A stretch of 64,000 nt of DNA, from assembly GCF_003018115.1 (NCBI RefSeq), contig NZ_CP027457.1. One strand, 5' to 3'. How positions within the stretch are numbered: the first letter of the stretch is position 1; every line of letters begins with the position of its first letter. Of this stretch, positions 6,583 through 6,798 are shown piece after piece. Below the pieces are notes generated by a model. The model saw only the letters and a list, made by a program, of their open reading frames with translations. It did no database searches and was not told the DNA's origin. The stretch is from Escherichia coli. Its GTDB lineage: Bacteria > Pseudomonadota > Gammaproteobacteria > Enterobacterales > Enterobacteriaceae. The position numbers and the translations under genes are program-made.

Positions 6583-6626
6583 ATGGTAATTACCATGTAA
6601 CTATAGTAATTAAGGGTAATTACCAT
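6583..6626. promoter_or_regulatory. Two perfect palindromes (ATGGTAATTACCAT; GGTAATTACC) in the RHH module-2 promoter, the second abutting the start codon
   Basis: Palindromes at 6583-6596 and 6615-6624 with a related half-site between them; ATG of the RHH gene at 6625. Confidence 0.6.
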
Positions 6627-6798
6627 GTCAACACCATTGGAAAAGCGATCGCCTCCATACCAAATGCGGCTACCAGAAGAATTCAGAGCACAACTTGAAG
6701 AGGCAGCGAAAGCAGACGGTGACACTTCTTTAGCCACCTGGATCAAGCGAGTACTCCGAAAAGAATTACAGCAACGCGGTATTGAACCCAAAGGATAA
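6625..6798 (+). CDS. Ribbon-helix-helix DNA-binding protein (57 aa), module 2
   Basis: Hand translation MSTPLEKRSPPYQMRLPEEFRAQLEEAAKADGDTSLATWIKRVLRKELQQRGIEPKG; below the ORF-track size cutoff; classic RHH pattern. Confidence 0.6.
   Translation: MSTPLEKRSPPYQMRLPEEFRAQLEEAAKADGDTSLATWIKRVLRKELQQRGIEPKG

What the first reader, a model, noticed from the sequence alone, without database searches (positions are those of the whole stretch)
6583..6627. Perfect palindromes flanking the RHH-2 start codon
ATGGTAATTACCAT (14 bp) and GGTAATTACC (10 bp, ending immediately before the ATG), with a related half-site between them, suggest tight autorepression. Their sequence differs from the module-1 palindromes.
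Basis: seen in the sequence. Interest (0 to 1): 0.45.

Follow-up and report, generated by a model that had tools for sequence, protein, structure and literature searches.

The report
Arc-like repressor operators in a phage satellite
The two palindromes are real and are almost certainly the binding sites of a small, unannotated Arc-like repressor in the control region of a phage satellite island, where they probably shut off two overlapping opposed promoters rather than only the repressor's own gene.

Summary
ATGGTAATTACCAT (6583-6596) and GGTAATTACC (6615-6624, abutting the ATG at 6625) are the only two exact copies in 64 kb. The "half-site" between them is not conserved.

The gene (6625-6798) encodes a 57-aa protein predicted to form an Arc-type ribbon-helix-helix dimer. 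It lies in a capsid-forming PICI-like satellite at tRNA-Pro, between alpA and an icd-like early operon.

In about 50 related loci from many Gammaproteobacteria, both sites keep their positions. Their sequence changes symmetrically with the protein's N-terminal/beta-strand class, not with the AlpA type.

The sites also overlap a predicted minus-strand promoter. Its -35 TTGACA sits on codons 1-3 of the gene and is frozen at synonymous positions. Site 2 fills that promoter's spacer, and site 1 covers both predicted start points.

In single-module relatives this leftward promoter faces the icd-like operon. Here it faces a 48-nt icd remnant, so this module is a second, differently specific copy in tandem.

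Autorepression is therefore likely but incomplete: this looks like a P22 immI-style switch. No binding or transcription was tested.

Side leads: a candidate antisense sRNA over the icd-like ribosome-binding site, and unexplained antisense stop-codon depletion across the repressor gene.

The parts
6583..6596 (.). Operator site 1: 14-bp perfect palindrome ATGGTAATTACCAT (core GGTAATTACC 6585-6594)
   Evidence: Conserved at -40 from the start codon in class-A loci. Replaced symmetrically in the other protein classes.
6615..6624 (.). Operator site 2: 10-bp perfect palindrome GGTAATTACC abutting the RHH-2 ATG
   Evidence: In classes A, C and D a class-specific palindrome abuts the conserved xTGTCAA start context.
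6626..6631 (-). Predicted -35 (TTGACA) of a leftward promoter PL, overlapping codons 1-3 of RHH-2
   Evidence: Promoter scan. TTGACA is present in 37 of 40 loci. Codon 2 is TCA in 47 of 48 and codon 3 is ACA in 34 of 36, against 1.6-2.5 bits of codon entropy at other conserved degenerate codons.
6603..6608 (-). Predicted -10 (TACTAT) of PL, 17 nt from the -35. The predicted start is near 6596, at the edge of site 1.
   Evidence: L005 and L007 have TATGAT at the same place although the surrounding spacer has diverged. It is weaker in L003 (TGCTAT).
6557..6584 (+). Predicted RHH-2 promoter PR: TTGTTT (6557-6562), 16 nt, TACAAT (6579-6584). Predicted start near 6591, inside site 1.
   Evidence: Found by eye and by my own scan; it falls below the threshold of the tool's scan. 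The TTG and the TAnnnT are conserved at fixed columns.
6612..6616 (+). Shine-Dalgarno AAGGG, 8 nt before the ATG, overlapping the left edge of site 2
   Evidence: Sequence.
6625..6798 (+). RHH-2 gene: 57 aa, predicted strand 11-15, helix 18-31, helix 36-50
   Evidence: Pfam Arc E 0.0079, below cut-off. NCBIfam YlcI_YnfO_N 20.1 bits, below the cut-off of 30. PHROG 228 'Arc-like repressor' E 4.9e-7. 93 homologs, mostly named 'hypothetical protein'.
6525..6565 (+). Hairpin (arms 6525-6532 and 6550-6557) plus T-run 6560-6565: an intrinsic terminator on the + strand, immediately upstream of PR
   Evidence: I13. In the alignment of 38 loci, 9 of 13 pairs show compensatory changes, with 68 G.U cells against 3 A.C cells, which points to the + strand RNA.
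6447..6494 (-). Remnant of the first 16 codons of an icd-like gene (ATG at 6494-6492) with its SD: the scar of a tandem module insertion
   Evidence: Alignment to L003 1432-1479 and to window 5701-5748.
6808..6834 (+). Hairpin GCGCCG...CGGCGC between the RHH-2 and partner-2 genes; a paralogous copy lies at 6130-6156 in module 1
   Evidence: terminator-like, weak T tail.
6856..7059 (+). Partner-2 gene (67 aa), function unknown; absent from most related loci
   Evidence: No Pfam or NCBIfam family. PHROG 21027, unknown function. Found in only 3 of about 50 loci.
5817..5941 (.). Module-1 operator region: GGTGTTGAACACC-type palindromes at 5837-5850, 5862-5874 and 5878-5890, related arms at 5817-5827 and 5931-5941, and a minus-strand TTGACG-17-TAAATT (5879-5851)
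5941..6120 (+). RHH-1, a YlcI/YnfO family protein (module 1)
   Evidence: NCBIfam NF041551, 59.7 bits; annotation of L001.
5551..5748 (-). Icd-like gene, first gene of the leftward early operon (which continues to DUF4222 and the RepA helicase at 2957-4366)
   Evidence: NCBIfam NF033153, 64.8 bits.
7181..7387 (-). alpA (AlpA/excisionase-type regulator), convergent with module 2; the integrase is at 7884-9125 and tRNA-Pro at 9347-9420

Best explanation
The two palindromes are the operators of RHH-2, an Arc-like ribbon-helix-helix repressor encoded immediately downstream. They lie in the compact control region of a PICI/P4-type phage satellite.

Inferred mechanism:
- A dimer (or higher oligomer) of RHH-2 places its two-stranded beta-sheet in the major groove of each GTAATTAC core.
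- The N-terminal arm and the first strand residues read the flanking bases, which give the class specificity.
- Site 1 covers the -10 end and start point of the gene's own rightward promoter PR (TTGTTT-16-TACAAT). It also covers the start point of an opposed leftward promoter PL (TTGACA-17-TACTAT).
- Site 2 fills the -35/-10 spacer of PL, as the Arc operator does in P22 Pant.
- Occupancy would therefore shut both promoters: autoregulation, plus repression of leftward transcription.

In single-module relatives PL is the only promoter-like element in front of the icd-like early (replication) operon, so there the RHH is the candidate repressor of the satellite's early genes.

In this window the module is a second copy with a different specificity, inserted in tandem. 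Its PL faces a 48-nt icd remnant and then runs antisense into module 1 and towards the true icd-like operon.

Shown here: the sequence features, their conservation, the protein/operator covariation, the predicted fold, and the synonymous-site constraint on TTGACA. Inferred, not shown: binding, both promoters and their start points, and the direction of regulation.

For: 2. Cognate covariation. Class A proteins (SP[PQ][YF]QMRL) go with GGTAATTACC twice, in Escherichia, Citrobacter and others. Class C (TDQYQ[IML]R) goes with GTTGTAATTACAAC and TGTAATTACA in an Enterobacterales MAG, Erwinia and Salmonella. Class D (SPQFPMRL) goes with GGTATATACC twice, cleanly in Serratia and less perfectly in Citrobacter and Photorhabdus. 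Class B (NPPFQFRL) goes with ATGTGTAATTACACAT. The changes are symmetric on both arms and occur in both sites.

3. Footprint. L005 and L007 keep both palindromes 30 bp apart while the 20 nt between them diverged.

4. Independence from AlpA. All four combinations of AlpA type 1 or 2 with operator class A or B exist.

5. Fixed geometry. The terminator arm lies 75 nt from the start codon in nearly all loci.

6. PL. TTGACA-17-TACTAT scores 10 of 12. TTGACA is present in 37 of 40 loci. Codons 2-3 are frozen as TCA ACA while other conserved codons are synonymously saturated. L005 and L007 have TATGAT at the -10 position.

7. Context. In single-module loci the gene is divergent from an icd-like-led operon of small genes and usually convergent with alpA.

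8. Control case. An orphan copy in Pantoea allii, with no satellite context, has no palindromes upstream.
Against: - No binding, transcript or start-point data exist here; both promoters are consensus matches only.
- PR fails the tool's own threshold (-35 is 3 of 6).
- The PL -10 is poor in the O157:H7 island (TGCTAT). In class B it is either TGTAAT or TAATGT, which is itself part of the operator repeat, so its conservation is ambiguous.
- The distance between the sites varies from 27 to 34 bp among classes, so any cooperativity is not phase-locked.
- The specificity 'code' has exceptions: Pasteurella class-A proteins go with GGTAATTACC plus GGTATATACC or GGTAAACACC.
- The DNA-facing strand residues Q13 and R15 are shared by classes A, B and C, so the discriminating contacts are only guessed.
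- The conservation of TCA ACA could reflect a constraint on translation initiation rather than a -35.
- The loci are related by descent, so counts of loci overstate the number of independent events.
Confidence: 0.65

Rival explanations
1. Pure autorepression: the palindromes control only the RHH-2/partner-2 operon. The minus-strand TTGACA-17-TACTAT is a chance match, vestigial in this tandem copy.
For: Site 1 overlaps the best plus-strand -10. RHH repressors commonly autoregulate (own knowledge). In this window the leftward promoter has no intact gene directly in front of it, only an icd remnant. The PL -10 is weak in L003.
Against: TTGACA is held at synonymous positions in 47 of 48 and 34 of 36 codons. 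In single-module relatives the icd-like operon has only about 130 bp of upstream DNA, and this is the only promoter-like element there. Module 1 has the same layout with an unrelated operator sequence.
Confidence: 0.2
2. RNA-level control: the two palindromes pair with each other in the mRNA (12-nt arms at 6583-6594 and 6615-6626) and hide the SD and start codon.
For: The arms are 100% complementary (I2). A transcript covering both folds to -15.1 kcal/mol.
Against: The z-score is only -1.57, and 13 of 200 shuffles fold as well. From the predicted start at 6591 no stable structure remains (z +0.55). Two copies of any palindrome are complementary by construction, so this needs no selection. Each site is itself a palindrome, which an inter-site stem would not require.
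Confidence: 0.05
3. The palindromes bind a different protein: AlpA, the integrase/excisionase, or the partner protein.
For: alpA lies 400 bp away, and AlpA-type proteins bind DNA near promoters (PMC9371919).
Against: The AlpA type assorts independently of the operator class. The partner gene is absent from most loci that keep the palindromes. The operator class tracks the RHH N-terminal class.
Confidence: 0.05
4. RHH-2 and partner-2 form a type II toxin-antitoxin pair, and the palindromes are the usual antitoxin operator.
For: The layout fits: a small RHH gene, then a small downstream gene, then a palindromic operator. Some sources name homologs 'HicB family antitoxin'.
Against: The partner matches no toxin family. 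It is missing in about 47 of 50 loci where the RHH and its operators persist. The conserved context is a satellite control region.
Confidence: 0.04

Closest known systems
Phage P22 immI region: Arc and Mnt (RHH repressors), overlapping opposed promoters Pant/Pmnt, and sar antisense RNA (own knowledge)
   Different: Sequence similarity to Arc is below Pfam's cut-off. The operators are perfect 10-14-bp palindromes with a GTAATTAC core, not the 21-bp arc operator. The controlled genes are an icd-like-led replication operon of a satellite, not an antirepressor. There is one RHH per module rather than an Arc plus Mnt pair. None of the transcripts has been demonstrated.
Phage P1 immI (C4 RNA - icd - ant) and P4 immunity (CI RNA in the leader of the early operon) (own knowledge)
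   Same: An icd-type gene sits at the head of an early operon that must be kept silent, with a small RNA element in its leader. Like P4, the element is a satellite with an AlpA/Vis-like gene upstream of the early operon.
   Different: A protein RHH repressor gene is inserted on the opposite strand between alpA and the early operon. There is no Rfam C4 match. The candidate RNA here would be cis-antisense rather than processed from the leader.
SaPI/Gram-positive PICI master repressor Stl/Rpr (PMC6092414)
   Same: A regulator transcribed divergently from the excision/replication operon of a phage-inducible island, in the position expected for a master repressor.
   Different: Stl is a larger helix-turn-helix repressor, transcribed in the same direction as int, and is inactivated by helper-phage proteins. 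For Gram-negative PICIs the paper states that a global repressor is unclear and that AlpA is an activator. No link between this RHH and induction is known.
YlcI/YnfO (DUF3950) proteins of lambdoid prophages, and the module-1 protein of this island
   Same: The same size and predicted RHH layout. RHH-1 of this island is a bona fide member (59.7 bits) and occupies the equivalent position with its own palindromes.
   Different: RHH-2 scores 20.1 bits against a cut-off of 30. The operator sequences are unrelated. No function of YlcI/YnfO was found in the searched literature.

Membership tests
Ribbon-helix-helix (Arc/MetJ-type) DNA-binding proteins | Beta-strand, helix, helix topology, forming an intertwined dimer with a two-stranded antiparallel sheet | tested here: met
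Ribbon-helix-helix (Arc/MetJ-type) DNA-binding proteins | Passes a curated sequence model of an RHH family | tested here: not met
   Pfam Arc PF03869 gives 16.5 bits against a cut-off of 20.4. NCBIfam YlcI_YnfO_N gives 20.1 bits against 30. PHROG 228 'Arc-like repressor' gives E 4.9e-7, but that library has no curated cut-off. No PDB relative was found by sequence.
Ribbon-helix-helix (Arc/MetJ-type) DNA-binding proteins | Binds repeated or symmetric operator subsites at its own promoter | not testable with these tools
   The sites exist and covary with the protein class. Binding itself needs an EMSA or a footprint.
P22 immI-type switch (Arc/Pant/Pmnt) | Operator located in the -35/-10 spacer of a promoter opposed to the repressor's own promoter | tested here: inconclusive
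   Site 2 lies exactly between the minus-strand TTGACA and TACTAT, and the TTGACA is under synonymous-site constraint. The promoter has not been shown to fire.
P22 immI-type switch (Arc/Pant/Pmnt) | Controls an antirepressor (ant) gene | tested here: not met
   The gene in front of PL in relatives is icd-like. AntA or BRO-N genes occur only in some loci, and elsewhere in them.
Type II toxin-antitoxin with an RHH antitoxin | Obligatory co-transcribed toxin gene next to the antitoxin | tested here: not met
   The partner gene has no toxin family match and was found in only 3 of about 50 loci.
PICI master repressor (Stl/Rpr) | Regulator divergent from the early (xis/replication) operon of a phage-inducible island | tested here: met
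   Met in the single-module relatives L003, L004, L005, L043, L044, L049 and L054. In this window module 1 holds that position, and module 2 lies behind an icd remnant.
PICI master repressor (Stl/Rpr) | Represses the island's early genes and is relieved by a helper-phage product | not testable with these tools
   No data. The published work names AlpA as an activator and reports no repressor (PMC6092414; 10.1101/2022.09.08.507074).
Capsid-forming PICI (context of the locus) | int plus alpA plus a replication module plus own capsid/protease and packaging genes, at a tRNA or other att site | tested here: met
   The window has int, alpA, an icd-like gene, DUF4222 and a RepA helicase next to tRNA-Pro and yejM. 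The 92%-identical island L001 also carries a ClpP-protease/major-capsid fusion gene and PerC. The capsid end of the island was not examined in the window itself.

The most novel reading that the evidence does not exclude
This RHH family would be the so far unreported repressor ('immunity') component of Gram-negative PICI, cf-PICI and P4-like satellites. Under this reading:
- It is a swappable cassette (operators plus the N-terminal half of the protein) that exists in at least four specificities.
- It keeps the icd-like early operon silent together with a cis-antisense sRNA.
- Induction works by AlpA-dependent transcription reading leftward through the repressor gene. That would explain the stop-free antisense frame that often runs from the alpA 3' end to the icd-like start.
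- Islands such as this one, with two modules of different specificity in tandem, would carry a double lock, or confer cross-immunity against a second satellite type.
Probability: 0.3. Interest if true: 0.72.

Novelty: new member of a known kind. Interest (0 to 1): 0.5.

Why it matters
For Gram-negative phage-inducible islands the published picture has an activator (AlpA) but no known repressor (PMC6092414). A conserved, mostly unannotated RHH gene sits exactly where a repressor would be expected, and its operators overlap the only promoter-like element in front of the early operon. That gives a concrete, testable candidate.

The natural series of protein classes with symmetrically altered palindromes is also a ready-made data set for how RHH proteins read DNA.

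There is a practical point as well. NCBI's pipeline misses this gene in O157:H7 because a spurious opposite-strand 'Icd-like pseudogene' is called over it.

Tried and rejected
1. Leaderless mRNA idea. I asked whether PL produces a leaderless mRNA starting at the ATG of site 1, encoding an N-terminally extended Icd. The ATG is 7 nt after the -10 in classes A and B, but only 8 of 36 loci read through in frame to icd-like. Rejected as a general feature.

2. mRNA stem between the two palindromes: weak.

3. Known RNA families around the hairpin: none apart from the tRNA.

4. Sequence search of solved structures with a family profile: only spurious helical-repeat hits.

5. Toxin-antitoxin reading: rejected because the partner gene is usually absent.

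6. AlpA as the binding protein: rejected because the AlpA type assorts independently of the operator class.

7. The half-site at 6603-6612 and the degenerate GGTAAGTACA at 6573-6582 as extra operators: not conserved. They are better explained as the -10 hexamers of PL and PR.

8. Literature searches for RHH, YlcI or Icd-like proteins in satellites found nothing relevant.

9. The first palindrome-pair shuffle test was flawed, because overlapping AT-repeat palindromes were counted. I do not rely on it.

Full report
OBSERVATION. The sequence is as described. ATGGTAATTACCAT occupies 6583-6596 and GGTAATTACC occupies 6615-6624. The ATG of a 57-codon ORF follows at 6625. The two copies also form a 17-nt direct repeat with one mismatch, 30 bp apart, and 12-nt fully complementary arms. 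Exact GGTAATTACC occurs nowhere else in the 64 kb. One 14-bp palindrome is not remarkable: there are 4 of at least 14 bp in the window and 5.1 on average in shuffles. The repetition of the same palindrome is what matters. The 'half-site' ATAGTAATTA (6603-6612) and a degenerate GGTAAGTACA (6573-6582) also exist.

CONTEXT. The window carries an island at tRNA-Pro (9347-9420) next to yejM. On the minus strand it has an integrase (7884-9125) and alpA (7181-7387). Two plus-strand modules follow, each made of an RHH gene and a small partner gene. After them, on the minus strand, come an Icd-like gene (5551-5748), several small genes, DUF4222 and a RepA-family helicase (2957-4366). A 92%-identical island in E. 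coli strain 4 also encodes a ClpP-protease/major-capsid fusion and PerC. That is the make-up of capsid-forming PICI satellites (10.1101/2022.09.08.507074). Module 1 encodes a bona fide YlcI/YnfO protein (59.7 bits) with its own, different palindromes (GGTGTTGAACACC type).

COMPARATIVE EVIDENCE THAT THE PALINDROMES ARE ITS OPERATORS. I collected about 50 loci: E. coli genomes, one genome per species, contigs for chosen homologs and a Pasteurella record. When the loci are anchored on the start codon, the upstream 75 nt align without gaps in nearly all of them. The protein's N-terminal and strand region falls into classes, and each class has its own palindrome at both positions.
- Class A (SP[PQ][YF]QMRL): GGTAATTACC at -40 and at -10.
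- Class C (TDQYQ[IML]R): GTTGTAATTACAAC and TGTAATTACA, in an Enterobacterales MAG, Erwinia and Salmonella.
- Class D (SPQFPMRL): GGTATATACC twice in Serratia, and near-copies in Citrobacter and Photorhabdus.
- Class B (NPPFQFRL): ATGTGTAATTACACAT plus a GTGTAATT half-site at the start codon.

The differences are symmetric on the two arms of each palindrome. That is the signature of a twofold-symmetric binding protein. In L005 and L007 the two palindromes and their spacing are intact, while the 20 nt between them have diverged. The neighbouring AlpA comes in two types that are about 23% identical. All four combinations of AlpA type and operator class A or B occur, so the sites do not follow AlpA. 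An orphan homolog in Pantoea allii, outside any satellite, has no palindromes.

There are caveats. The loci are related by descent. Pasteurella class-A loci mix GGTAATTACC with GGTATATACC or GGTAAACACC. The distance between the sites ranges from 27 to 34 bp. The half-site and the degenerate upstream copy are not conserved.

WHAT THE OPERATORS CONTROL. The promoter scan found its best match on the minus strand: TTGACA (6631-6626), 17 nt, TACTAT (6608-6603), scoring 10 of 12. Site 2 lies exactly in that spacer, and site 1 begins at the predicted start point (about 6596). The -35 is the reverse complement of codons 1-3 of RHH-2 (xTG TCA ACA). Across the family, codon 2 is TCA in 47 of 48 Ser codons and codon 3 is ACA in 34 of 36 Thr codons (0.15 and 0.31 bits). 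Other conserved four- or six-fold degenerate codons show 1.6-2.5 bits. Something at the nucleic-acid level therefore fixes TGTCAA, and a -35 hexamer is the simplest reading. L005 and L007 have TATGAT at the -10 position in otherwise diverged sequence. L003 has a poorer TGCTAT, and class B has TGTAAT or TAATGT.

The rightward promoter is weaker by consensus: TTGTTT (6557-6562), 16 nt, TACAAT (6579-6584). Its TTG and TAnnnT are nevertheless at fixed columns. Its predicted start (about 6591) falls inside site 1.

In the single-module relatives (O157:H7 L003, DEC9B L004, O166:H15 L005, Salmonella L043, Serratia L044, Pasteurella L049 and L054), the RHH gene is divergent from the icd-like-led early operon. 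The 130-bp gap between the two genes holds nothing else that resembles a promoter. Module 1 of this window has the same arrangement with unrelated operator sequence: TTGACG-17-TAAATT on the minus strand, one palindrome in the spacer and one at the start point.

I therefore read the sites as a shared operator for two opposed, overlapping promoters, in the manner of Arc at Pant/Pmnt of phage P22 (own knowledge). Both promoters and the binding itself remain inferences.

WHY THERE ARE TWO MODULES. The 178 nt upstream of RHH-2 (6447-6624) align with the L003 intergenic region plus the first 48 nt of its icd-like gene, and more weakly with window 5701-5818. Module 2 therefore carries a truncated icd start (ATG at 6494-6492). 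It arose when a second control module of different specificity was inserted in tandem. L002 has the same junction but a class-B cassette in the module-2 position, so the cassette is exchanged by recombination. At least 66 complete E. coli genomes have both modules in this form. The module-2 type covers at least 80% of the query in 416 genomes. In this island PL of module 2 would transcribe antisense through module 1 towards the real icd-like operon. Whether that is used is unknown.

RIVALS. An mRNA stem between the two palindromes is weak (z -1.57; none from the predicted start). A toxin-antitoxin pair is unlikely because the partner gene is absent from about 47 of 50 loci and has no toxin signature. 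Binding by AlpA is contradicted by the independent assortment. Pure autorepression remains possible if the minus-strand promoter is not real.

LITERATURE. [quoted passage not shown] The cf-PICI paper mentions no repressor. Pseudomonas AlpA is a processive antiterminator (PMC9371919, PMC7969949). Searches for RHH, YlcI/DUF3950 or Icd-like proteins in satellites found nothing relevant. These searches cover only the held library.

SIDE OBSERVATIONS.
(a) The hairpin plus T-run just upstream of PR (6525-6565; copy at 5777-5818) is conserved as a structure. Nine of 13 pairs show compensatory changes. There are 68 G.U cells against 3 A.C cells, so it works in the plus-strand RNA as a terminator. A TAnnnT hexamer sits at a fixed distance (-42 or -43 from the TGGTTAGA motif) in 22 of 47 loci, and within a few nucleotides of that in several more, inside the first codons of icd-like on the opposite strand. 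Together these predict a plus-strand RNA of about 78 nt, antisense to the SD and start codon of icd-like, with the anti-SD CCUC in the loop of a second small hairpin.
(b) The minus strand is open for 501 codons, from inside the alpA 3' end to 12 nt past the icd-like ATG (5736-7226). Across the family the antisense frame whose third positions coincide with those of the RHH gene is stop-free in 35 of 51 distinct genes. Synonymous shuffles give 12.6 +/- 2.9. Host genes in the same window show no such effect (0.187 against 0.204). The depletion is spread over several codon contexts (18 stops against 50.7 expected). In many loci the open frame runs from about the alpA stop to about the icd-like start. 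I cannot explain this. Translation that accompanies AlpA-dependent read-through is one idea.
(c) PGAP annotates this antisense frame in O157:H7 as an 'Icd-like pseudogene', and so omits the RHH and partner genes there.

VERDICT. The autorepression reading is plausible but too narrow. The feature is a new, largely unannotated member of the Arc-type repressor/operator kind, sitting in the control switch of a phage satellite. All functional statements await binding and transcript-mapping experiments.

Noticed in passing
window 5742-5818 and 6488-6565 (+ strand); promoter-like TTGTGT-17-TATGAT at 5707-5735 and TTGTGT-17-TATGCT at 6453-6481: Candidate cis-antisense sRNA of about 78 nt covering the SD and ATG of the icd-like gene. 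It ends at a hairpin plus T-run that is conserved with compensatory changes and has G.U pairs only on the + strand. A TAnnnT hexamer lies at a fixed distance upstream in 22 of 47 loci. There is no Rfam match.
   Followed up: partly
window 5736-7226 (- strand); L003, L008, L015, L043, L044 and others: A stop-free minus-strand frame of about 500 codons runs antisense through both RHH modules, from the alpA 3' end to the icd-like start. Across the family, antisense stop codons are depleted within the RHH gene (35 of 51 genes stop-free against 12.6 expected; control genes show no effect). The cause is unknown.
   Followed up: partly
L003 1610-1783 (E. coli O157:H7 FRIK2455, NZ_CP015843.2): The RHH-2 ortholog (98% identical) and its partner gene are not annotated by PGAP. 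Instead an 'Icd-like pseudogene' is called on the opposite strand (1633-2226).
   Followed up: yes
window 6130-6156 and 6808-6834: Both modules have a conserved GC-rich hairpin (GCGCCG...CGGCGC, then ATTGCTTTACAG) between the RHH gene and the partner gene. It could be an attenuator or a processing site that sets the ratio of the two products.
   Followed up: no
window 5817-5941: Module 1 (YlcI/YnfO type) has four or five GGTGTTGAACACC-like sites, including one abutting its ATG (5931-5941). It also has a minus-strand TTGACG-17-TAAATT with a site in the spacer. This is the same design as module 2 with an unrelated operator sequence.
   Followed up: partly
L002 1488-1625 compared with window 6447-6624: An O145:H28 island has the same tandem junction and icd remnant, but carries a class-B operator and N-terminus cassette in the module-2 position. 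This indicates recombinational swapping of specificity cassettes.
   Followed up: partly
L052/L053 (Pantoea allii) 1100-1377: An orphan RHH homolog next to an MFS transporter, with no icd-like gene and no alpA. It has no palindromes upstream.
   Followed up: no
L054 (OR544139.1, 'Pasteurella phage Pmp8', 15.3 kb) 4313-5183: A 15-kb record deposited as a phage has the same RHH gene, divergent from a 187-aa gene annotated 'transcriptional repressor'. It also carries primase and terminase genes, so it is probably a satellite. Its two sites differ from each other (GGTAATTACC and GGTATATACC).
   Followed up: no
whole window: Matches to GGTAATTACC with up to 2 mismatches are about threefold more frequent than in shuffles (59 against 20.75). 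Most are in host genes, so this is probably a k-mer or codon bias rather than extra operators.
   Followed up: no
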